Part shown: in pieces, positions 3,148 to 63,621 of the stretch
Layout: every line of letters starts with the position of its first letter
Position numbering within the stretch: the stretch's first letter is position 1
DNA from: a virus
Virus record (IMG/VR): IMGVR_UViG_3300023176_006361
Location: 1 to 64,000 of that record
Reading direction: 5' to 3' (one strand)
Length of the DNA stretch: 64,000 bases
Made by a program: the position numbers and the translations under genes
The notes under the pieces: model-generated
The model's database searches: none
The model's input: only the letters and a program-made list of their open reading frames with translations
What the model was told of the DNA's origin: nothing

Positions 3148-3148
3148 T

Positions 3149-27150: not shown

Positions 27151-27399
27151 TTATCCTAATGCAATTGTGAGTGCGATTACTTCGTCTTCTGAAACACCAG
27201 CAGTAAAGGAATTCACAGCGTCGGTCAAATTAGTGAAGTTGCCTTGAAGTTGACCAATGTCGCCAACGTTCTCAGAGATCTGGTTGATCTTTCTTCTTTG
27301 ACCTTCAAAAGTATCAGTAGTAAGAACTACTGGTTTTGTAGAAGTATGTGGTGAAGTGGGAGTAGAAAATATTGCTACTCCCCAAGATGATTGTGCCAT
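27151..27399 (-). CDS. 82-aa fibre anchor/adaptor protein
   Basis: N-terminal SSWGVAIFST strand, TDTFEGQRRKIN motif, coiled segment, C-terminal IALTIALG. Confidence 0.75.
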   Translation of the reverse strand: MAQSSWGVAIFSTPTSPHTSTKPVVLTTDTFEGQRRKINQISENVGDIGQLQGNFTNLTDAVNSFTAGVSEDEVIALTIALG

Positions 27400-27400
27400 T

Positions 27401-30400
27401 TTAGGTTACGTTGATTCTTGCCCTTACATAATAATTGGTTGACGATTCCAGGACGACATTAGAAGGTACTTCCAGTTCCAATAAATTCTCGGTATCTGTA
27501 AGTGACTCATAAATGACATTGCTAAATGAAGCATCGTCAGCAATCTGCCAATCAGTTGAAGTATGTGAATAGTTAGCAGTGTCATAGCTAACATTATTTA
27601 GGTTGATGGTTGGTCTCAGACTTGTTTCAATTGGTAGATTGAATACTGGTTGATCAACAACGTTTGTTGTAAATGCTACTGGAGAACTCCATGCACTATC
27701 AAAACCAGCACTATCTCTATATCTAACTTCTACTGTATAAGTAGTGTTCCAATCAAGAACAGGAGCCAAGAATTCAATTTTTTGTCCACTATCTCCAGCA
27801 GGATCAAAGTCTACAGCAGTTGTATAAACAATCTGTCCATCACTCACTCTAGTAATTCTCCAGAATGAATATTCGTGACCATTACCAAGATAACTGATGA
27901 AGAGGCTAGATTGAATTCTAGGTTGTCTTACAAAAGTTTTGGTGGTTATGGCATCTACAAATCCTGCAGGGTTGATAGTAGGATTTGCAATAAACTGAAG
28001 TGTCAGGATTGCTGCGTTTGAATATGCAACTGCAGCACCTTCAGACTGAGCACTTAGACGATAATAATAACCATTGTTTGTAGAGTCTCCAGTAACTGAT
28101 AAATTATTTGAAATTGATGAAGGAATATCTGTCCAAGTAGCACCTTGATTAGAACTTACCTGCCAAAGATAGTTGATCGTTCTGTTGCTGGTAACAGATG
28201 CATTTGCAGTAAACGTAACTGGAACACCAGCAGTAGTAGAAACACTCTGGGGTTGTTGTGTAAAAGTAATGACTGGAGTCAATACTGTCAGAGTCGCAAC
28301 ATCAGATGTTATTGGTGAATTAGTTGCAGCAGGGTGACTAATGATGACTCTATATTGATCACCATTGTCATTCGCAGTTACTGTTGCTGGAGTTGTGTAT
28401 GAATTAGTTGTTTCTCCAACAAGTGGCGTCCATGTATTGCCATTATCATCTGACTTCTCCCACTGATATGTAACTACTGATGCATCAGATGCATTAGCAG
28501 TTACCGTGAAATTGGCCGCATCAGGTTGATATCTTGTTTGATCTTGTGGTTGAGAAACAATTGCAATGGTAGGTCTGACATTGACAGTCAGAGATGCTGC
28601 GTTAGATGTAATATCTCCTGCAGAACCTACAAGACTTACGACAACTCTATATTGATTTCCACTTGCTGAAGTAGCTACATTAGAAATAGTATACGAGTTA
28701 TTGACAGCACCAGTAATAGGTGTCCAAGTAGAACCAGAATCTGTAGATTCCTGCCATTGATAAGTTGCAGTTCCGCTTGATACTGTAGTCGCTACACTGA
28801 ATGTAACATTCTGAGTATCATAAACTGTTTGATCAGTTGGTTGAGTATCGATCGCAAGAGTTCTTTGAACAGTCAGAATAACTGCATTAGCAACAACTGA
28901 TCCAAGACCAGGAATGGATCCAGTTACGCGATAATAATCATCATTATCATCTGCGTATGTTGTACCTGAAACCGTCAGAGAGCTTGAAGTTTCCCCTGCA
29001 ACTGCCGTCCAAGTAGATCCTTGATCATCAGATCTTTCCCATAGATATGTGATTGATAGACCACTATTTGTGGACATGGCAACAGTAAATGTTGCATCTG
29101 TACCTTCGTTTACAGTCTGATTTGTGAGTTGAGTATCAACTGTAATCGAACCCTGAGTTACAGTCAGAATTGCAACATCAGATGTCAAAGGAGTATTGAC
29201 TGCTGAAGTCGATGAAACCTGTACTCTGTATTGATATCCAGTGTTTCCTGCTGGAGTTTGAATGCCACTCAATGAGAGAGTTGCATTTGTTTCTCCAATC
29301 ATTGTGGTCCATGTAGAACCATTGTCAGATGACTCTTCCCACTGATATTCCAGAGGAACATCATCAGTGCTTGCTGCCGTTACTGAGAATGTTGCAGTCT
29401 GACCTGAGATGATTGAAACATCTGCTGGTTGTGATGAAATAGTCAGGAAAGATCCAACATACTGCAAAGGCATTGCGTTGGAATATGTGGTTGCTGATCC
29501 AGAATCAGTAATCTCTAATCTAATCAGAAGATTATTAATTGCAGAAGTATCGTCTTTGATCGTCAAAGTTGTGTTGGTTTCACCAGAGAATCCAATTTCA
29601 GATGCAGCAATATTTGTCCAAGTTGCTCCATTATCAGAACTCTTCTGCCACTGGTATGTGTGTGGTGCAGTTCCTGGTGCTATATCATCAACAGTAATTT
29701 CTCTTGGGTTACTTCCACCACCTTTTGCAAGGACGGTCATACCATCTACCCAAATGTCATTTACATCAAAACCACCATTTGCTGGACCATTAGGGTTATT
29801 TCCACCTGGATCAGATGGTACAAATGCAGATCCTGGTTGATAATATGCTTGTCTCAGTGATGTACCAAAGATGTATGGATATACAGGAACATTACTTGAG
29901 TCAACAGTAATAAAGTATGCATATGTTCCATTTGGATAATCTGGGGTTACACCATAACGTCCGTTTGAACTATCAAGTGTTCCAGATCCTGGAGAATAAG
30001 TATAGTCTTGTAGGAATGAACCTGCACTCAAAGTTACTGACTGACCACTAACAGTAATAGTATCAGTATATTTGAAACCTACAGGTCTATGGGTATCAGT
30101 ATTGAGTTGACTAAATGATGAAGTCATTCTCGTAGGAGATGACGTATTATCATTGGCGTTTGTATAACCCCATGGACCATAAATTGGGTGACCATCAAAT
30201 GCCCAACCAATGATCTTAGAGTGACCATCAGGATGACGGAAATTATCTCCATTATAATTTGTTGTTTTATAATATGAATTTCCTTGTGCTACTGCACTCC
30301 AGTCGCCACTGAATAAGAATGTACCGCTGTGATAATGATATTCACCATTTTGTTCTGGATGTCCACCAGCACTGTCTACACCATAATACAATTCATTGTG

Positions 30401-33400
30401 AACAGCATTATACTCAAATCCTGGTGGTGGATTGTCTTGACTTCCTGGGAGAGCACCAGGACCAGCAGATGGGTTGAATAAAACAACACCATTAGATGCG
30501 ATACCAAGAGCACCAAGAGTCCATGGTGTCAATGATGGTGAATTTGTACCACCTCTATAAACAATTGTATGATTTAGAGTTTGTGCTGAAGTAGTATTTG
30601 GATTAGCGCCGTTTGGATGTGGACCATGAGTTGCTGGATCTGGAAGTTGATCAGAAACAATCGTCATCAAATACTCTGAAGCAGAGAAGTTGCTGCTTGT
30701 CAATGACAAACTATCATCAGCACTTACTCCATTTGGTCTAATGATATTGATTGCCGATCCAACCTGAGTTTGAAGTACCGTTAGAACTTGTGCAGTGGAT
30801 GTAACTGAACTGTAGAAAGAAGTTGAGTCAGCATCAGAAGTCCCTCCAGTTGTGGTAAAGTCGTAATAGATACGTGATCTAAATGAATAACCATTCAAAG
30901 ATAATGGTGGTAAAATTTCAAGTGTTCCTGTTCCAAGTCCAGATGTATACCAGGACTCAGTTCCATCAATATACGTATAACCATTTCCATCATCATATTC
31001 CCAGAGAATTACTCCATTTGGAACTGCGGGTGTTGAAAGATTTGTATAAGTTACTGTAAAAGTATATGGCGTGCTTTGATTGACACTACCTGTAGCAGGA
31101 ATATCTGTGCCGACACTATAGACTGGATCAACACTAACTACTCCACTTGTTCCTCCTTGAGTTTGTGAAACAAGCAGTTGTGGATGATCAATAAGAACAA
31201 CTAATTGAGCACCATCATCACTAGGATTGAATCCATCAATTGATGCTTCACCAACTCTTACACTGTAGAGTTGATGTCCATTAGATCCAGTTTGTCCTTG
31301 AAGTGCTTCGATTCCATATGGACTACCAGGAAGATACGAAGGATTTGCTGGCGTTGCCCCAGGATCATAACCAAGAGAAATTATTGGGGTAGATCCATCA
31401 CTGAAAGTCGCTTCAATTTCTACTCTACCTGTATTTGCTCCAGCAAAAATATTTGTCAGAGAAGCATTATCCCAATAAGTATTATGAGTAAGTGTTACTG
31501 TAGCAGTGAAGGTTCTTGCTAGAGTTCTAACATCCGCAGCATTTCCCGAATCTGCAGATACTACGCATGAGAAGAAGTAACCACTTATGTCAGTACTATC
31601 AGGAACAGTCAAAGTTGCTGTATTGACACCACTGACATTAGCAAGAACTGCTGCATCATTCCACTGTCCATTATTGACTGCTGCTTGAGTTGTAGCATAC
31701 TGCCAACCATAACTCAAAGATCCTGCATCAGAAGCAGATGCTGTAACAGCAAAAGTAGCAGTTCCACCATCTACTGGATATGATCCATCTCCAGTTGCAT
31801 TAGATGGTTGAACATCGATTGTAATTACTGCGTTATTAGTGCCTGAGAGTGTAAATGAACGATCAAGTACATTTCCAGAAACTTTTTCTCTAATACGGAA
31901 TGTGTAAGTTTCATCTGATGGACCTGAAGTTGCAGTTCCTGAAAATACACCAGTTGCAGAATTAAAGGTAAATCCAGAACCAGTAATTGTATAAACACCA
32001 TTACTCTCTGTAAATGCTGAGGTTGACCCAGTATCTACTAATTCAAATTCTGGTGTGATGTATTGGGAACTTACAGTTTCTCCAGCAAAAGTAGTGGTTG
32101 TTACTGATACTGTAGTTGTAAATGTAGATCCATCATTGAGAGTTATACCATCAATGTTATTTGGAGTTTCGCTCCAAGTAGTTGTCAGATCAACAAATGG
32201 GAAGAAGATGCCTTGACCGCCGTCATATGTAACTGACTGAGTTCCTGAAGAAACTGGATTATATCTTCTTTCTTCTTCTGGGTTTGCATTGAGATAAGCT
32301 GCTCCCCAACGACGACCAGCAAGACCGAGTTCAGAGAATCCACTACCAGTTGATTGTATAACTCTTGATTTTGGAACAGGGAATTGCTTTACAGCAATAC
32401 CACCACCATATTCCTCAGTTTCTAACTGAGCCCAAATATCACCAGCGACGAATGGATTACCGTCAGGTGCATTTCCAGACCTTACAACGCTTGAGTAATT
32501 AGTAATCCAATTATAAATTGCATCATTTGCAAAGAAAGTCCCTTCAATTTTGGTGAATCTCATTGGCCATCTTGGACGACCACCAATAATCGAGTCATCA
32601 TCTGCTTTATTGAACATGCTGCCGCCACCTTGTTCGGTGCCAGTTGCAGTTGTATCAGCAGTGAATGTAATAGTTTTATTTGTAGAGTCAATTGCCGTGA
32701 CTGTTCTCCACTTAGAGCAAAAATCTGGGAGAGAAATACCACCAATTGTTGCTTCAGTAACATTTGTTGCAGAAATAAGCTCTGCTCCCATTCCTGGATG
32801 ATTTTGGCAATAGTAGTAATAACTTGCTGATGTAGCAACAGTACTAGGAACGTCTGGGTGAGTATCTCCTCTTGGATCAATAAATTCAATATAACACTCT
32901 ACTCCGCCACCAACAGCAGCACTATAAGTTGCTTTATCTACTTCTCCTTGCCCAGCAACAAAATAACGAATACAATTGTTGGTGTTCAAGCTCAAACTAG
33001 TAAAATATGCATCAAAGGAATCTCCACCAGAATGAGTTCCATCTGATGTTGGAGAAATATCTAATGGATGAGTTGCATTAGATGCATCAGTTTGAAGGAA
33101 TCTATAAACTACACCTTGTTCAATGGAAAGATTTGGTTGAGATGCAGGAGATCCAGCAGCAACACCATTTTGAATTCTATCAAATGCAAATACTCCACCA
33201 GAAACAGTTACTTCATATTTTATGATTTCGCCAAGGTTGAAAGTATCTTTCTTTCTCTCATCGTGAAGTAGAGTTGTTGGATTTTGTGTTCCAGGATCAG
33301 TAACTCTGGGAAATTCAAATTCAAAAATATCACCTTGCTGAGGATTCAGTGCAGTATATACTGCATCATGAAGACTCAATGTAACATCAGTAGAACCGCT

Positions 33401-35305
33401 TGTAGTGCTAAGAGGATATCTCTTTGCTGTATCATTAGCAGCAGTTGTCATAAAATACGTTGTTGCTGCACCCTGACTGACATTGGTGAAATTTTGAAAA
33501 CCAACTGCAGATGGATCCTGGACTGTATGGTCAGTAAAACTTACAGGAGACTCTGCCGCCAGCGCAGCATTTGGTTGACCAAATTGTGCCTGTGCATCAT
33601 AAATGTCTCTCCAAACTGCAACCATGCCTGCAACAAGTGGAGATGAGAATGAAGTTCCACTGATTGTTACATGATTTGCTCCTGTATAATCAGATCCAGT
33701 AGTAGTGCTTGATGTCCAATCATAACTTGGGCAATAAATTCCTTGACCAGGAGCATAGCAAGTAACAGCTTCACCATAGTTGGTAAAAGTTGCGAATGTC
33801 TGACGATTACTTACAAGTCTCGTAGCACCAACAGTAAGTTTATCAAAACCACCACCTGACATTCCATAAGTATTTGATGAATAATTTGTCAGACTGATTT
33901 CTGGATCAAGTTCAGATTGTATACCAGAATCTCTTACACCATATCCAATTCTTGTATTTTTTGGACCATAATTTTGAGGATTGCTATCTGCGTCCGTCCA
34001 AGTCATGCCGTTACCAGCAGATCTAACGAGAGTAACTCTTGGTAATGAAGCAATTCTTGCCTCAGCATCTTCATATGCCTCATCAAAATTTGTTGTTGGT
34101 AAATTAGCTTCTCGAACAACAATTGTGCCAGTCATCGCTGAGTGAAACTGGCAAACATAAGTCAGAGTACCAGAATTATCTAAGAGCTGAGAAGTATCAA
34201 TCGTGACCTCACCAGTTTGATTATCTCCAGATGTTGTTGTAGCACCAGAAAATGCACCAAAATCATCATTGACCAAGAATGGGTGTCCAGATGCATTCAT
34301 GTTCATAACAAGAATGTCACCTTTGGTAACAGTCAGAGTCGGATCATTTGCATTAGTGTGTGTCGTAGTTCCATCAGTTCCAGAAAAAACATAATCACTA
34401 GAACCATTGTTACCTACATTGAAATTATATGTTTGTGGAGCATAGTTTTCATTTCTCCCCATGAAAGGAAATTCGGGAGTAGGAGAACTCAGACCAATAC
34501 TTACATTGACAACAGAAGATCTTGGTCTTGTATTTCCGTCAAGAGTATTTCCTTTGAATTCTGCATCGTCAGGATCATTGTGTCTATAAACAGCATCCCA
34601 TGCTTCCAGCATCTTAGTAGTAAAGATGTCACCATTATCATCAGATACTCTCAAAGCATAAATTTTTGCCTTATTTGCAACGCCAGCAAATCTACCTGCT
34701 GCCATGATTGCACAATAAGTTCCATGTCCATCTGAAACGTTGCTGCCAGTTGACTGAGGTTCATTTCCATCTGTAGTCCCTGGATCATATAGAGATGTTG
34801 GAAGTTCGTATACTCTGTAGTTACTTTGCTCAGTAGATCCATTCAGATTCGTAACATAATCTGGATGAAAAAATTCTGGGTGAAGTCCTGCACCAGATCC
34901 TGTTGGTCTGCTAGCACCTCGAATGCCTGAGTCAATAACATAGATATCTACATTTTCGCCATCATTTTTTGTGGAAAACGATCCAACGTTTGGATTTGAA
35001 TCATCATAATCCAACCTTGAAATCGCATCCAAATGCCAATACCTATTGCCAGAAGTTGCTCCTGGAACATAGGTACTTCTTGTTGCGTGAAGCTCAAAAT
35101 TACAATGATCTTTAGAAACCTTGCCCAACTCTAAGGCAGAAATTTCATTATAAAGTCTTTCTTGATCATCGCCGTCAAAGATGATTATGTCTAGACTTTT
35201 TAGAATCTTATATGAATCAATAGTTACGGAGGAAGAAACATCAGTCGCGATCTGCTCTAGAGATGCAGAAGGGGATGTTCTTTTGAGCAGGACTTTATTA
35301 GACAT
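27401..35305 (-). CDS. Giant multidomain protein (2634 aa): S8 subtilisin-like protease + 2 cupredoxin-like domains + YHYH domain + Ig repeats + FN3-like C-terminus
   Basis: Catalytic D (VDIYVIDSG), H (DGHGTYCA), oxyanion N (SAGNG), S (SGTSFSSPLVAG); CQFHSAM and CQNHPGM; GEYHYHSG...GWAFDGHPIYGP; repeated QP......G..ATF.V.A....L.YQW..S.D.G.TW. Confidence 0.9.
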   Translation of the reverse strand: MSNKVLLKRTSPSASLEQIATDVSSSVTIDSYKILKSLDIIIFDGDDQERLYNEISALELGKVSKDHCNFELHATRSTYVPGATSGNRYWHLDAISRLDYDDSNPNVGSFSTKNDGENVDIYVIDSGIRGASRPTGSGAGLHPEFFHPDYVTNLNGSTEQSNYRVYELPTSLYDPGTTDGNEPQSTGSNVSDGHGTYCAIMAAGRFAGVANKAKIYALRVSDDNGDIFTTKMLEAWDAVYRHNDPDDAEFKGNTLDGNTRPRSSVVNVSIGLSSPTPEFPFMGRNENYAPQTYNFNVGNNGSSDYVFSGTDGTTTHTNANDPTLTVTKGDILVMNMNASGHPFLVNDDFGAFSGATTTSGDNQTGEVTIDTSQLLDNSGTLTYVCQFHSAMTGTIVVREANLPTTNFDEAYEDAEARIASLPRVTLVRSAGNGMTWTDADSNPQNYGPKNTRIGYGVRDSGIQSELDPEISLTNYSSNTYGMSGGGFDKLTVGATRLVSNRQTFATFTNYGEAVTCYAPGQGIYCPSYDWTSSTTTGSDYTGANHVTISGTSFSSPLVAGMVAVWRDIYDAQAQFGQPNAALAAESPVSFTDHTVQDPSAVGFQNFTNVSQGAATTYFMTTAANDTAKRYPLSTTSGSTDVTLSLHDAVYTALNPQQGDIFEFEFPRVTDPGTQNPTTLLHDERKKDTFNLGEIIKYEVTVSGGVFAFDRIQNGVAAGSPASQPNLSIEQGVVYRFLQTDASNATHPLDISPTSDGTHSGGDSFDAYFTSLSLNTNNCIRYFVAGQGEVDKATYSAAVGGGVECYIEFIDPRGDTHPDVPSTVATSASYYYYCQNHPGMGAELISATNVTEATIGGISLPDFCSKWRTVTAIDSTNKTITFTADTTATGTEQGGGSMFNKADDDSIIGGRPRWPMRFTKIEGTFFANDAIYNWITNYSSVVRSGNAPDGNPFVAGDIWAQLETEEYGGGIAVKQFPVPKSRVIQSTGSGFSELGLAGRRWGAAYLNANPEEERRYNPVSSGTQSVTYDGGQGIFFPFVDLTTTWSETPNNIDGITLNDGSTFTTTVSVTTTTFAGETVSSQYITPEFELVDTGSTSAFTESNGVYTITGSGFTFNSATGVFSGTATSGPSDETYTFRIREKVSGNVLDRSFTLSGTNNAVITIDVQPSNATGDGSYPVDGGTATFAVTASASDAGSLSYGWQYATTQAAVNNGQWNDAAVLANVSGVNTATLTVPDSTDISGYFFSCVVSADSGNAADVRTLARTFTATVTLTHNTYWDNASLTNIFAGANTGRVEIEATFSDGSTPIISLGYDPGATPANPSYLPGSPYGIEALQGQTGSNGHQLYSVRVGEASIDGFNPSDDGAQLVVLIDHPQLLVSQTQGGTSGVVSVDPVYSVGTDIPATGSVNQSTPYTFTVTYTNLSTPAVPNGVILWEYDDGNGYTYIDGTESWYTSGLGTGTLEILPPLSLNGYSFRSRIYYDFTTTGGTSDADSTSFYSSVTSTAQVLTVLQTQVGSAINIIRPNGVSADDSLSLTSSNFSASEYLMTIVSDQLPDPATHGPHPNGANPNTTSAQTLNHTIVYRGGTNSPSLTPWTLGALGIASNGVVLFNPSAGPGALPGSQDNPPPGFEYNAVHNELYYGVDSAGGHPEQNGEYHYHSGTFLFSGDWSAVAQGNSYYKTTNYNGDNFRHPDGHSKIIGWAFDGHPIYGPWGYTNANDNTSSPTRMTSSFSQLNTDTHRPVGFKYTDTITVSGQSVTLSAGSFLQDYTYSPGSGTLDSSNGRYGVTPDYPNGTYAYFITVDSSNVPVYPYIFGTSLRQAYYQPGSAFVPSDPGGNNPNGPANGGFDVNDIWVDGMTVLAKGGGSNPREITVDDIAPGTAPHTYQWQKSSDNGATWTNIAASEIGFSGETNTTLTIKDDTSAINNLLIRLEITDSGSATTYSNAMPLQYVGSFLTISSQPADVSIISGQTATFSVTAASTDDVPLEYQWEESSDNGSTWTTMIGETNATLSLSGIQTPAGNTGYQYRVQVSSTSAVNTPLTSDVAILTVTQGSITVDTQLTNQTVNEGTDATFTVAMSTNSGLSITYLWERSDDQGSTWTAVAGETSSSLTVSGTTYADDNDDYYRVTGSIPGLGSVVANAVILTVQRTLAIDTQPTDQTVYDTQNVTFSVATTVSSGTATYQWQESTDSGSTWTPITGAVNNSYTISNVATSASGNQYRVVVSLVGSAGDITSNAASLTVNVRPTIAIVSQPQDQTRYQPDAANFTVTANASDASVVTYQWEKSDDNGNTWTPLVGETTNSYTTPATVTANDNGDQYRVIISHPAATNSPITSDVATLTVLTPVITFTQQPQSVSTTAGVPVTFTANASVTSNRTINYLWQVSSNQGATWTDIPSSISNNLSVTGDSTNNGYYYRLSAQSEGAAVAYSNAAILTLQFIANPTINPAGFVDAITTKTFVRQPRIQSSLFISYLGNGHEYSFWRITRVSDGQIVYTTAVDFDPAGDSGQKIEFLAPVLDWNTTYTVEVRYRDSAGFDSAWSSPVAFTTNVVDQPVFNLPIETSLRPTINLNNVSYDTANYSHTSTDWQIADDASFSNVIYESLTDTENLLELEVPSNVVLESSTNYYVRARINVT

Positions 35306-60876: not shown

Positions 60877-60905
60877 ATTATAAAGCATGGAGAGAGTCGT
60901 GTCAA
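60877..60905 (-). promoter_or_regulatory. Perfect sigma70-type (early) promoter TTGACA-N17-TATAAT
   Basis: Minus strand TTGACA (60905-60900), 17-nt spacer, TATAAT (60882-60877). Confidence 0.88.
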
Positions 60906-63280
60906 CCCTCTCTGCTGATATCGAAGGAGTTACAGAAGTCTCCATTTGGAGGAGACTGTGTTCCAGAAGAAGTGCCATTAGATGCCCAACCATAAGGAGA
61001 AGGTGATCTATATGTACCAGGGATGTACTTGAATGCTCCAATTGTTGCTGTACCATCACCTGCAATGACAGAACTGTTTCCATCATAAATGACATTACCT
61101 GCCCAAAGTATAACAAGTTGACGTACACCTGATGTTGGTGTGCTCTCTGGTCCACCAGATCTTGTATACCAACCATAATCGGGTCTATTGGACATAAGAA
61201 CTGGATATTCTGCAATACCTCCTTGTGCAGTATATGGTCCTTCGATTGCAGACTCAATAACAATTCTAGAGTTTGGATTACCACCAGATCCTTGGTTATC
61301 ATCCTGATTGTCAGATGAGACTCCAGTGACGCCAGAAACAATAGTGGAGTGAATATAACCTGATCCACCGCCACCACCAGATGCATTACGGGTGGAGTTA
61401 CCATTATCGTTACCGCCGCCGCCTCCGCCGCCGCCGTACCATCCACCACCACCGCCTCCGCCGCCTCCAGCGTTGGGGTATCCATTCTGCTGACCATCGC
61501 CGCCACGACCACCTTGTAGTCCACTACCAGCACTACCGCCAGCACCACCACCATTACCACCAGAGGACTGAGTACCAGCACCACCTCCAGTAGATCCGAT
61601 TTGGGTATCACTGGAAGATGTACCTCCACTGCCACTCTGACCGCCTCCAGTGCCGCCAGGAGACGACCCATGACCAAATCCAGTACCACCAGCACCACCA
61701 GCGATCATAAGGGCATTAGACTGCGATGCAGAGGTTCCTGTGAAAAGACCTGCATATCCACCACCCCTACTGTTACTGACCCATCCATATGATGTACCAG
61801 CATCACCACCACCAGTATCAACTTGTGCTAGGTAATTTTGGTTTTGTACAAAGTTATAAGATCCTGTTGAATAACCTGCTCTGATACCATTTCTACCTTC
61901 TCCCCACATCCAAATACGACGACTCTGATCCTGATAAGGAATCAAAGTAAAGTCTCTTGTACTGAAATTATGAGCATCAATGATCAATGGACCATGTACA
62001 GCAAAGATCCAGTTGTTGACAGTTTCGTTCGTAAGTCCTGATGTGATGGCAGGAGAAACATACATGTCATAATCATAAGTAATGATTGTTGCAATCTCAG
62101 AGAATACAGGAGCAGCAGCATTGACATTAGTAACCTTACAACGATAAGAGTCACCACTGTCTGTTGCTGAATTCAATGCTGCTGTTGTATATGTCGCAGA
62201 ATTAGCGCCAGAAACATCATTGAAGATCTGTTCATTCAATTCTCGCTTCTGCCACTGGTAAACTAACGTACCAGGAACATCCAACGTTGCTGTGACATTG
62301 AATGTTGCTATGGATCCATTGACACCTGTAACGTCATTAGGATTGACTGTAATCGTGATGTTTGCAGGTGTGACAGTCAGAGTTGCTGAATTTGATATTT
62401 TTTCTTGATTGTATATTGAACTAATCTTACAACGGAATACTCTACCGTCATCATCAACATAAGATGTGTTTGCAATCACCAGAGACGTTCCTGTCTCTCC
62501 TGGCATATCTACAAACGTGTTGAACTGGTTTCTTTCTTGCCACTGATAAGAAATTGCTGATCCATCACTAATTGTTGCTACTACATTGAATGTAGCAGTA
62601 TTTGTTGCCTGAACTGTAACATCATCAGGATTTGCCGTTGCAGGATTGAACTCCATGACTGCCCATGTGCCAATCTCAGTATCAAAACGTAGTTCTTTAC
62701 TCCAATCAGTAGATATACATTCTGTCAATGTAAATACAAACTTACCACTATGCTTTGGTGCTTTTGTAACTGTAAATGTTCTTGCATTCAAATCTACAGT
62801 TCTGACCAATACATCATTATCAAATGCTGCACCACCCACAAACCCTTTGAGAGTTCGTAGATAGTCAATTCTCATGCCTGGTTCAATATCAAAGATTAGT
62901 TCTCTGCCATATGTAAGAACATCACCCGTTACAGGATCTTGATAACCTAAGAGATTAACGGTTGTAGAACCACGATTGATAATTGCAACAATTTCAATTT
63001 TCCTCGCATTTGGTGCATCAACATTTGTGTGATACTTCGCATGGACCCAATATTCTTTGTTTTGCTCCAGAACATCCTCTACATTGAAAGAGAGCTTCTT
63101 GCGATGCTCCACACTTACGTCCTGATAATAAACAACATCAGGAGGATTATTATTCCTCCCAAACATAAAAGTCTTTGAGATCTCCCAAGAGGTCGCTATA
63201 TGATTCTTCTCAGTAACTCCCTCAAGTTCAGTGATCTGCAGATCGCTTGGGAGGTTGAACTTATATGGCGTCTTCGACAT
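60902..63280 (-). CDS. FN3-like + 2 Ig-like + glycine-rich (polyglycine-II/ALK-LTK-like) fibre/adhesin protein (~792 aa)
   Basis: Start reassigned to MSKTPY (TAATG overlap with the PAAR stop) instead of 63346; YQWQ Ig repeats; GGGYAGLF...LMIAGGAGG...GGGGWYGGGGG...GGGGSGYI. Confidence 0.82.
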   Translation of the reverse strand: MSKTPYKFNLPSDLQITELEGVTEKNHIATSWEISKTFMFGRNNNPPDVVYYQDVSVEHRKKLSFNVEDVLEQNKEYWVHAKYHTNVDAPNARKIEIVAIINRGSTTVNLLGYQDPVTGDVLTYGRELIFDIEPGMRIDYLRTLKGFVGGAAFDNDVLVRTVDLNARTFTVTKAPKHSGKFVFTLTECISTDWSKELRFDTEIGTWAVMEFNPATANPDDVTVQATNTATFNVVATISDGSAISYQWQERNQFNTFVDMPGETGTSLVIANTSYVDDDGRVFRCKISSIYNQEKISNSATLTVTPANITITVNPNDVTGVNGSIATFNVTATLDVPGTLVYQWQKRELNEQIFNDVSGANSATYTTAALNSATDSGDSYRCKVTNVNAAAPVFSEIATIITYDYDMYVSPAITSGLTNETVNNWIFAVHGPLIIDAHNFSTRDFTLIPYQDQSRRIWMWGEGRNGIRAGYSTGSYNFVQNQNYLAQVDTGGGDAGTSYGWVSNSRGGGYAGLFTGTSASQSNALMIAGGAGGTGFGHGSSPGGTGGGQSGSGGTSSSDTQIGSTGGGAGTQSSGGNGGGAGGSAGSGLQGGRGGDGQQNGYPNAGGGGGGGGGWYGGGGGGGGNDNGNSTRNASGGGGGSGYIHSTIVSGVTGVSSDNQDDNQGSGGNPNSRIVIESAIEGPYTAQGGIAEYPVLMSNRPDYGWYTRSGGPESTPTSGVRQLVILWAGNVIYDGNSSVIAGDGTATIGAFKYIPGTYRSPSPYGWASNGTSSGTQSPPNGDFCNSFDISREG

Positions 63281-63621
63281 TATCCAATTTCTAATGCAGG
63301 TGCTGCAGGTGCTGAAGTAAATACTGGTGCTCCACCCGCAAAACAATTAGGGGATCCCTTGGCTACTGCGGTACATGTAGCATCACTCACACGCCCACCA
63401 CCAACACCATTGACAATGACTGTCCGTGATCCGATAGTAATCGGTGCAGCATGTGTCGGACAGGGACTGCCAGGAAGTAGGTGAGCAGTATTATTATCAC
63501 CCTGTCTACTCCATGGTATATTATTGATAAACACATCAGCTGATCCCTTTGCTCTGACCATGCCAGAACAATGAGGAACATCTGCGTCTCCAATTCTAGT
63601 AATTGGCATTGATGCTGCCAT
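63280..63621 (-). CDS. PAAR spike-tip protein (gp5.4-like) with a C-terminal extension
   Basis: ITRIGD...HC...GS.DVFIN....RQGD...H.....C..H...I..GS.TV.VNG....RVSD..C...AKGSPNCFAG. Confidence 0.9.
   Translation of the reverse strand: MAASMPITRIGDADVPHCSGMVRAKGSADVFINNIPWSRQGDNNTAHLLPGSPCPTHAAPITIGSRTVIVNGVGGGRVSDATCTAVAKGSPNCFAGGAPVFTSAPAAPALEIG

What the first reader, a model, noticed from the sequence alone, without database searches (positions are those of the whole stretch)
27151..27760. Split FN3-like domain: the next gene appears to supply the missing last beta-strand of the 2634-aa protease (donor-strand docking or +1 frameshift)
Seen: the giant protein ends in two tandem FN3-like repeats. 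Repeat 1 closes with VEVRYRDSAGFDSAWSSPVAFTT. Repeat 2 stops abruptly at YYVRARINVT*, and the next gene starts MAQSSWGVAIFST. Joined across ACC TAA A ATG (+1 shift), VRARINVTKMAQSSW aligns gap-free with VEVRYRDSAGFDSAW, and the following W....F(S/T)T strand also matches with a one-residue offset. The related FN3-like domain at the N-terminus of the 792-aa fibre (YWVHAKYHTNV-[~110-aa insert]-ISTDWSKELRFDT) carries an insertion at this same F-G loop, so the loop tolerates a break. TAA-A-ATG is also the junction at 3148, 15759, 24433 and 26747, which favours two real genes over a sequencing indel. Inference: the 82-aa protein (strand + TDTFEGQRRKIN + IALTIALG) is a hub that clips a huge enzyme onto the virion by beta-strand complementation, like pilus donor-strand exchange. 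I do not know of this being described in phages.
Basis: partly seen in the sequence, partly recalled or inferred. Interest (0 to 1): 0.85.

Follow-up and report, generated by a model that had tools for sequence, protein, structure and literature searches.

The report
FN3 domain split across two phage genes
In a marine cyanophage, a giant protease-bearing protein ends in a fibronectin-type domain that lacks its last beta-strand, and the next small gene starts with a conserved peptide resembling that strand; the split is real, but whether the peptide plugs into the domain remains an untested hypothesis.

Summary
The 2634-aa protein (27401..35305, minus strand) ends ...YYVRARINVT*. One base later the 82-aa gene starts MAQSSWGVAIFST.

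The split is neither a sequencing error nor a likely frameshift. The isolate phage S-BM3, six IMG/VR contigs and DNA contigs from two studies all keep stop + 1 nt + ATG. The last sense codon (ACC/ACT/ATC) and the spacer base (A/T/C) vary, and the ATG is always kept.

The domain is a widespread tandem-repeat FN3 whose full form ends YYVRVRYqdsnGsSdWSatvsFTT. An AlphaFold model gives a complete first FN3 and a second that stops at strand F.

Appending the 82-aa N-terminus to the truncated domain adds 6-8 bits against a full-domain profile. That ranks 1-2 of 623 N-termini in the contig. The peptide is under purifying selection and is predicted disordered when alone.

The case against is substantial. 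About 72 Prochlorococcus-phage contigs have the same truncated FN3 followed directly by neck gene gp13, with no donor peptide found. Unrelated proteins also end after strand F, followed by a terminator. A short strand-only profile scores the peptide only 2.6 bits.

Verdict: trans strand complementation is plausible (about 0.4) and unproven.

The parts
27401..35305 (-). Gene for the 2634-aa giant protein (T4-GC 519 type). It carries an S8 peptidase, a YHYH domain, Ig-like repeats and two C-terminal FN3 domains.
   Evidence: ORF and translation. Pfam YHYH, E 7e-37. PF00082 and PF13927 are precomputed for this protein. The S-BM3 homologue is annotated peptidase S8.
27662..28000 (-). Repeat 1: a complete FN3 domain, ending ...VEVRYRDSAGFDSAWSSPVAFTT.
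   Evidence: The AlphaFold model has six strands including G at model residues 108-111. VIA-align gives Z 11-12, rmsd 2.0-2.5 A over 91-100 residues to whole FN3 domains.
27404..27661 (-). Repeat 2: an FN3 domain truncated straight after strand F (...NYYVRARINVT).
   Evidence: The full-domain profile match stops at position 90 of 127. The last strand of the AlphaFold model is residues 191-198 of 199. All 22+ family members end the same way.
27400..27403 (-). Junction: TAA stop (27401-27403) plus a one-base spacer (27400) before the ATG.
   Evidence: The spacer is A, T or C in relatives, and the last sense codon is ACC, ACT or ATC. DNA contigs from two studies and one RNA-library contig bridge it unchanged.
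27328..27399 (-). Residues 1-24 of the 82-aa protein (MAQSSWGVAIFSTPTSPHTSTKPV): an N-terminal extension resembling the FG loop plus G strand.
   Evidence: The profile alignment SdWsatvsFtt / SSWG-VAIFST adds +6.7 to +7.7 bits. SSWG, F11, T13 and P14 are invariant. pN/pS is about 0.2-0.3. pLDDT is below 50 when folded alone.
27250..27327 (-). Residues 25-50 (VLTTDTFEGQRRKINQISENVGDIGQ): a motif shared with the extreme N-terminus of large virion structural proteins. It forms the start of a long helix.
   Evidence: phrog_6005 'virion structural protein', profile positions 6-31 of 1512, E 4.7e-4. The >990-aa protein of L010 starts MASIQVYKTDTFEIQRRKINQ. Helix 28-66 in the model.
27151..27249 (-). 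Residues 51-82 plus the stop: the end of the long helix and a short C-terminal helix ending EDEVIALTIALG.
   Evidence: helix 71-81. Conservation.

Best explanation
The window comes from a T4-like cyanomyovirus close to Synechococcus phage S-BM3. Its giant S8-peptidase protein ends in an FN3 domain that stops right after strand F, which leaves an open edge and a partly exposed core.

The next gene is translationally coupled by TAA-A-ATG. It encodes an 82-aa protein with three parts: a free, disordered 21-24-residue N-terminal peptide (AQSSWGxAIFSTP), a long helix carrying a motif otherwise found at the very N-terminus of large virion (fibre-like) proteins, and a short C-terminal helix.

Proposed mechanism (inferred): the N-terminal peptide lies down as the missing FG loop and G strand of the giant's last FN3, a form of fragment or donor-strand complementation. 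This joins the giant protein non-covalently to a small helical adaptor, which in turn docks to the virion or to other fibre proteins.

Shown:
- the two genes are separate;
- the domain is truncated;
- the peptide resembles the missing piece, with the right combined loop length;
- the peptide is conserved under purifying selection and occurs only next to the truncated partner.

Inferred: physical insertion of the strand, the adaptor role, and virion location.
For: - The split is conserved in S-BM3 (88% nt identity) and in six IMG/VR contigs down to 52-58% domain identity, always as stop + 1 nt + ATG.
- The full-domain consensus ends YYVRVRYqdsnGsSdWSatvsFTT. The giant stops after YYVRARINVT.
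- AlphaFold gives a complete domain 1 (G strand at 108-111) and a domain 2 that ends with F. The fold is a tandem FN3.
- Appending the 82-aa N-terminus adds 6.7-7.7 bits with the alignment running through F-T-T, rank 1-2 of 623. Relatives add 5.8-7.5 bits.
- From the last R of strand F to the last T of strand G, the joined chain has 17 residues (18 with K at the joint) against 18 in the consensus.
- The N-terminal extension has pN/pS about 0.2-0.3, the same as the rest of the protein. SSWG, F11, T13 and P14 are invariant.
- Folded alone, residues 1-27 are disordered.
- The TDTFE.QRRKINQ motif sits at residues 6-31 of phrog_6005, and at residue 9 of a large protein in L010, a locus without the giant gene and without the extension.
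- Every locus with the 82-aa gene has it directly behind the truncated FN3.
- Precedent: in phage DT57C, N-terminal strands of fibre protein LtfA are donated to the sheets of LtfC (PMC10713586).
Against: - About 72 of 80 IMG/VR loci (P-HM1/P-HM2 type) carry the same truncated FN3 (...TTYYVRIRFNVNPT*) followed at -1 to +3 nt by gp13. Its N-terminus has no extension compared with the window's own gp13.
- None of 1602 Met-starts in P-HM2 matches the G strand.
- Other multi-FN3 proteins end after strand F (RYKGSSSL*, RHSGSDE*, RYLSEPTP*). For RYKGSSSL* the gene is followed by a terminator and no donor lies nearby. An open-ended FN3 can evidently exist without an adjacent donor.
- The strand-only profile gives 2.6 bits, rank 12.
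- The strand needs a one-residue deletion to align.
- One metagenome variant (P0010) replaces AIFSTPTSP by an out-of-frame stretch.
- No structure of the pair could be predicted.
- No evidence places either protein in the virion.
Confidence: 0.42

Rival explanations
1. The truncated FN3 is a self-sufficient C-terminal module. It may bury its open face by self-association, or dock on a neck or baseplate protein. On this view the 82-aa N-terminus resembles a G strand only as a leftover of an old gene fission or by chance, and it now serves another contact.
For: Class B loci keep the truncated FN3 next to gp13 with no donor anywhere in P-HM2. Three other families end after strand F, one followed by a terminator. 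The strand-only profile score is weak. AlphaFold folds strands C-F of domain 2 with pLDDT 79-89 without any G strand.
Against: The extension is under purifying selection as strong as on the rest of the protein. It ranks first or second of 623 N-termini in the contig. The combined loop length fits. It is found only behind the truncated partner. An old fission and present-day complementation do not exclude each other.
Confidence: 0.4
2. The open FN3 is a socket filled by a strand from some other virion protein in both phage classes. That strand is internal or not FN3-like, and the 82-aa protein is not the donor.
For: Truncation after strand F recurs in several families. In class B the gene sits beside gp13, where wac sits in T4 (own knowledge). 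Beta-strand donation is known in phage fibre docking (PMC10713586).
Against: No candidate strand was found in P-HM2 with N-terminal or internal scans. This view does not explain the G-strand-like, conserved N-terminus of the adjacent gene.
Confidence: 0.12
3. Programmed +1 frameshifting at ACC-TAA-A makes a fused 2717-aa protein with a complete FN3 (NVTKMAQSSW).
For: The frames differ by +1 and the joined reading aligns with the full domain. Stop-codon +1 sites exist in other systems, such as prfB and antizyme (own knowledge).
Against: The last sense codon is ACC, ACT or ATC and the skipped or spacer base is A, T or C, so no shift site is conserved. The ATG is kept in all relatives. The same TAA-A-ATG joins four unrelated gene pairs in the window. 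In class B the spacing to gp13 varies from -1 to +3.
Confidence: 0.04
4. A one-base sequencing or assembly error splits a single gene.
For: None beyond the +1 frame relation.
Against: The same split is present in an isolate genome, in six IMG/VR contigs from different samples, and in Logan contigs of two studies, with 0 differences and 0 indels. An RNA-library contig bridges the junction unchanged.
Confidence: 0.01

Closest known systems
Donor-strand complementation/exchange in chaperone-usher pili (own knowledge)
   Same: An Ig-like fold lacks its last (G) strand. A partner carries a disordered N-terminal extension that could fill the groove. The contact would be non-covalent but could be very stable.
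   Different: There is no periplasmic chaperone or usher, and no homology to pilins. The fold here is FN3 and the donor is a small helical protein rather than the next copy of the same subunit. The chain is cut inside the FG loop, so the donor would run antiparallel to F exactly as the native G strand does. Strand insertion has not been shown here.
Beta-strand donation by fibre N-termini in T5-like phage DT57C (LtfA strands augment LtfC sheets; PMC10713586)
   Same: In a phage virion, N-terminal strands of one protein extend the beta-sheet of another to attach an appendage.
   Different: In DT57C complete sheets gain extra strands. Here a canonical domain would be completed by its own missing strand, encoded at the start of the next gene.
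Tandem-repeat FN3-like domain of phage and bacterial surface proteins (consensus H.S.DWQ...YYVRVRY...S.WS....FTT; 739 representative proteins)
   Same: Repeats 1 and 2 of the giant protein are members (E down to 1e-78 for multi-copy proteins). The fold is confirmed as FN3.
   Different: Repeat 2 stops after strand F. Most copies elsewhere are complete: 17 of 29 C-terminal copies end after strand G.
N-terminal motif of phrog_6005 'virion structural protein'; possibly T4 gp9/gp10 N-terminal domain
   Same: Residues 25-50 of the 82-aa protein match phrog_6005 positions 6-31 (E 4.7e-4). An ESM Atlas neighbour cluster carries PF07880 in 54% of its members (score 0.87).
   Different: PF07880 itself gives no hit on the protein or the contig. 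The 82-aa protein has no fibre body behind the motif.

Membership tests
FN3 fold (repeat 1) | Seven-strand beta sandwich, A-B-C-C'-E-F-G | tested here: met
   AlphaFold model with pLDDT 77-95 over residues 41-110 and a G strand at 108-111. VIA-align Z 11-12, rmsd 2.0-2.5 A over 91-100 residues, covering whole FN3 chains.
FN3 fold (repeat 2) | Presence of the FG loop and strand G | tested here: not met
   The profile match ends at position 90 of 127 and the protein ends 3-4 residues later. The model's last strand is F, residues 191-198 of 199.
Donor-strand complementation (pilus-like mechanism) | Acceptor domain lacks its last strand | tested here: met
Donor-strand complementation (pilus-like mechanism) | Partner has an unstructured N-terminal extension whose sequence fits the missing strand | tested here: inconclusive
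   In favour: +6.7 to +7.7 bits in context and rank 1-2 of 623, and residues 1-27 have pLDDT below 50 when folded alone. Against: only 2.6 bits with the strand-only profile.
Donor-strand complementation (pilus-like mechanism) | The strand physically occupies the groove of the acceptor | not testable with these tools
No multimer prediction is offered.
Chaperone-usher pilus family (membership) | Pilin homology, periplasmic chaperone and usher genes | tested here: not met
   Pfam and PHROG scans of the neighbouring genes show only phage structural families. This is an analogy, not membership.
Programmed +1 ribosomal frameshift | Conserved shift site and no need for a separate start codon | tested here: not met
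   The last codon is ACC, ACT or ATC, the spacer is A, T or C, and the ATG is kept in all eight relatives. The same junction occurs at four unrelated gene pairs.
T4_gp9_10_N (PF07880) | Profile match above the curated cut-off | tested here: not met
   No hit at E <= 10 on six family members or on the 76.8-kb contig. The only pointer is an ESM Atlas lead.
T4-GC 519 / phrog_27200 giant proteins | C-terminal FN3 followed by a truncated FN3 | tested here: met
   phrog_27200 positions 1643-1829 of 1832, E 2.8e-39. The S-BM3 and P-HM1/2 homologues are annotated GC 519.

The most novel reading that the evidence does not exclude
Cyanomyoviruses use an 'open-ended' FN3 domain, cut after strand F, as a general docking socket at the C-terminus of giant appendage proteins. 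In the S-BM3 lineage the missing strand is encoded at the start of the next, translationally coupled gene. One canonical domain would then be assembled from two polypeptides, probably as they leave the ribosome, which would be a split-domain assembly code for virion appendages. The truncated ends seen in the P-HM-type and RYKGSSSL-type proteins would be sockets for donors not yet recognised.
Probability: 0.3. Interest if true: 0.8.

Novelty: new variant of a known kind. Interest (0 to 1): 0.55.

Why it matters
If the peptide does complete the FN3, this would be a natural two-gene split of a canonical FN3 domain used to fasten a 2634-aa enzyme-bearing appendage to a phage particle. That mechanism is known from bacterial pili and, more loosely, from T5-like fibre docking, but I found no description of it for FN3 domains of phages.

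It would give a simple rule for reading fibre modules in the poorly understood hypervariable structural regions of marine cyanophages: look for a domain that lacks its last strand and a neighbouring gene that starts with that strand.

It would also offer a small natural peptide/domain pair for protein engineering.

If it does not, the finding still documents a conserved, unexplained open-ended FN3 at the C-terminus of a protein family found in about 80 ocean virus contigs.

Tried and rejected
- **Joined-chain fold.** I did not resend it in any form.
The contexts of P0008, P0010, P0011, P0111 and P0122 could not be read directly.
- **Fused homologues.** The 'longer' search for fused homologues of the 82-aa protein found none. 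This is weak evidence.
- **tblastn of the 82-aa protein in phage genomes** hit only S-BM3.
- **Pfam** on the 82-aa family found nothing, and PF07880 found nothing on the contig.
- **PDB sequence search** gave only a chance coiled-coil hit.
- **Donor strand in P-HM2.** An N-terminal scan of 1602 starts and an internal strand-profile scan found no credible candidate. The weak A1 match inside PHM2_092 (E 0.004) was not followed further.
- **Donor near the RYKGSSSL* proteins:** none found.
- **Loci for P0111, P0067 and P0096** in IMG/VR: none found.
- **Sequencing error** is rejected.
- **Covariation** between strand and socket was not attempted. Only about four distinct sequences exist.
- **Literature searches** for donor-strand use in cyanophages, and for virion proteomics of this protein, found nothing relevant.
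Full report
**What is there.** All genes in this part of the window lie on the minus strand. The 2634-aa ORF (27401..35305) ends ...SSTNYYVRARINVT-TAA. One base (A, 27400) follows, then the ATG of an 82-aa ORF (27151..27399) that starts MAQSSWGVAIFSTPTSPHTSTKPVVLTTDTFEGQRRKINQ.... That includes the four other TAA-A-ATG junctions and the FN3-like domain with a ~104-aa insert in its FG loop in the 792/814-aa protein.

**Origin.** The nearest isolate is Synechococcus phage S-BM3, a T4-like cyanomyovirus of the Kyanoviridae, at 88% nucleotide identity. There the giant gene is annotated peptidase S8 (T4-GC 519), and the same 82-aa ORF follows it. The region lies between a VrlC-like giant and a run of fibre-like genes. 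gp13, gp14 and gp15 lie 20 kb further on.

**Not an error, and not a likely frameshift.**
- S-BM3 has ACC TAA T ATG.
- Six IMG/VR contigs, down to 52-58% identity in the domain and 70% in the small protein, all have stop + 1 nt + ATG. The last sense codon is ACC, ACT or ATC and the spacer is A, T or C.
- Twelve or more DNA runs from about ten studies hold all sampled words of the stretch.
- The contigs of the two DNA runs laid, from two studies, show 0 differences and 0 indels. One 151-nt contig from an RNA library bridges the junction unchanged.
- The small ORF cannot start further upstream, because its frame has a stop three codons before the ATG.
- No shift site is conserved, the ATG is always kept, and the same junction joins four unrelated gene pairs. 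Programmed +1 frameshifting is therefore unlikely (about 0.04).

**The domain.**
- A full HMMER scan of 1.8 billion representative proteins with the last 89 residues found 739 proteins, many with 5-25 tandem copies.
- A profile of 250 complete copies ends ...ttYYvRVRYqdsnGsSdWSatvsFTT. The giant's second repeat matches only to profile position 90 of 127 and then the protein ends.
- AlphaFold on the last 199 residues (11-row alignment, pLDDT 77.8) gives two domains. Domain 1 has strands up to G (108-111). Domain 2 has strands at 131-134, 146-154, 162-166, 175-177 and 191-198, and nothing after F.
- Foldseek and VIA-align identify tandem FN3. Domain 1 covers whole FN3 chains at Z 11-12 and rmsd 2.0-2.5 A.
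- The first half of domain 2 is less confident (pLDDT 62-73). This is a soft observation only.

**The 82-aa protein.**
- The family is small: five 90% clusters plus the loci, at 68-100% identity. No longer (fused) form was found (weak evidence).
- Invariant residues include S4, S5, W6, G7, F11, T13, P14, S16 and P17, and the block K22-N39.
- Folded alone it is poorly defined (pLDDT 54.8). Residues 1-27 are disordered, followed by helix 28-66 and helix 71-81.
- Residues 25-50 match positions 6-31 of phrog_6005, a 1512-position 'virion structural protein' profile (E 4.7e-4).
- In IMG/VR locus L010 a protein of more than 990 aa starts MASIQVYKTDTFEIQRRKINQ directly after the VrlC-like gene and a 71-aa ORF. 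That locus has no GC 519 gene and the protein has no N-terminal extension.
- Residues 1-21 of the 82-aa protein are thus an add-on in front of a motif that normally sits at the very N-terminus.
- Synonymous and non-synonymous counts give pN/pS of about 0.2-0.3 for codons 2-21, the same as for codons 22-82. The add-on is a functional peptide read in this frame.

**Does the add-on look like the missing strand?**
- I joined the truncated domain to the first 26 residues of every Met-start of 40 aa or more in the 76.8-kb contig and scored each against the full-domain profile.
- The 82-aa N-terminus adds 6.7 bits (7.7 with K at the joint). The background mean is 0.66 with sd 1.2. It ranks 2 and 1 of 623.
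- It is the only candidate whose alignment runs on through the G strand: SdWsatvsFtt against SSWG-VAIFST.
- Relatives add 5.8-7.5 bits.
- The two chain ends together give an FG loop of normal length.
- Against this, a free search with a 20-position loop-and-strand profile scores the peptide only 2.6 bits, below several out-of-frame segments.
- The resemblance is real but short. It counts because the gene was specified in advance by its position. I estimate p at about 0.002-0.003.

**Evidence that a donor may not be needed.**
- A search of IMG/VR with the C-terminal module returned 80 loci.
- Six are the S-BM3 type described above.
- About 72 are the P-HM1/P-HM2 type (Prochlorococcus phages). 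In these the homologous protein ends ...TTYYVR[IAV]RFN[VI][ND].[TVIL]*, and the next gene, at -1 to +3 nt, is neck protein gp13.
- That gp13 has no extra N-terminal residues compared with the window's own gp13.
- None of 1602 Met-starts in the whole P-HM2 genome fits the strand. The internal scan found nothing in gp13 or gp14. P-HM2 has no 82-aa homologue.
- Outside this family, P0034, P0042 and P0057 end ...RYKGSSSL*, P0067 ends ...RHSGSDE* and P0096 ends ...RYLSEPTP*. All stop just after strand F.
- By comparison, 17 proteins end with a complete copy, and 6 are cut elsewhere, mostly ending flush with the domain match and so probably partial ORFs.
- For two RYKGSSSL-type proteins the stop is followed by a clear hairpin terminator, and no donor lies nearby.
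- An open-ended terminal FN3 is therefore a recurrent natural design. It either needs no donor or takes one that cannot be recognised by sequence.

**Reading.** The most economical history has three steps. An ancestral protein had a complete last FN3 followed by a helical tail. It was cut in the FG loop into two coupled genes. The small gene was later lost, or never gained, in the P-HM lineage. Both lineages share the junction ACCTAA-N-ATGGC. The small protein's N-terminus is still under selection and occurs only behind the truncated partner. I therefore favour continued complementation in trans (0.42) over an autonomous truncated domain with an unrelated role for the peptide (0.40). The margin is small. 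The hub or adaptor role and the virion location are inference from gene neighbourhood and from the phrog_6005 motif.

**Comparison with known systems.** The mechanism would work like donor-strand complementation in chaperone-usher pili (own knowledge). It is not a member of that system, since there is no pilin, chaperone or usher. In phages, N-terminal strands of fibre protein LtfA extend the sheets of LtfC in DT57C (PMC10713586), so strand donation in appendage docking is known. A canonical FN3 split across two adjacent genes is, as far as my searches show, not described. I rate it a new variant of a known kind.

**Limits.** The S-BM3-type family has only about four distinct sequences, too few for covariation analysis.

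Noticed in passing
L119-L193 (IMG/VR); L002 4270-4272; L003: In ~72 Prochlorococcus-phage contigs the gene ending in the truncated FN3 is coupled (-1 to +3 nt) to neck gene gp13. This is the position that wac (fibritin) holds in T4 (own knowledge). The family may be a neck or whisker-like appendage.
   Followed up: partly
P0034, P0042, P0057, P0067, P0096; L043 7885, L042 3085: Unrelated multi-FN3 phage-like proteins also end just after strand F (RYKGSSSL*, RHSGSDE*, RYLSEPTP*). Two are followed by a hairpin terminator and then a gene starting MPNPLFRYPLD. An open-ended terminal FN3 is a recurrent design.
   Followed up: partly
P0010 (ENA contig of 160,935 nt): A variant of the 82-aa protein reads residues 9-17 in the +1 frame (VSDILYSCFT instead of VAIFSTPTSP), which implies two compensating indels. 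It is either an assembly error or a natural variant that destroys the strand-like segment.
   Followed up: no
window 60902-63346 (-): The 792/814-aa protein starts with the same FN3-like domain, carrying a ~104-aa insert in the FG loop (profile positions 35-93 at residues 44-108, positions 97-108 at residues 213-224). Ig-like repeats follow.
   Followed up: partly
window 3148, 15759, 24433, 26747, 27400: Five gene pairs are joined by exactly TAA-A-ATG. Five of the six TAAAATG words on the coding strand are gene junctions, so this looks like a preferred coupling signal.
   Followed up: partly
L044 6588-6924 (JFJP01039046.1): A multi-FN3 gene is broken into four ORFs by frameshifts. The first break lies inside an FG loop, and the reading continues in the +2 frame as ...HGAVDQSSNITFTST. 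It is either a pseudogene or a sequencing error.
   Followed up: no
window 27401-35305 (-): My Pfam scan at E <= 0.01 lists YHYH, Ig_3 and a weak cupredoxin match, but not Peptidase_S8. The precomputed list for the same protein does include PF00082, so the protease domain is probably interrupted by an insert.
   Followed up: no
window 27341-27491: A contig from a salt-marsh metatranscriptome library bridges the stop/start junction without change. This is compatible with co-transcription of the two genes but does not prove it.
   Followed up: partly
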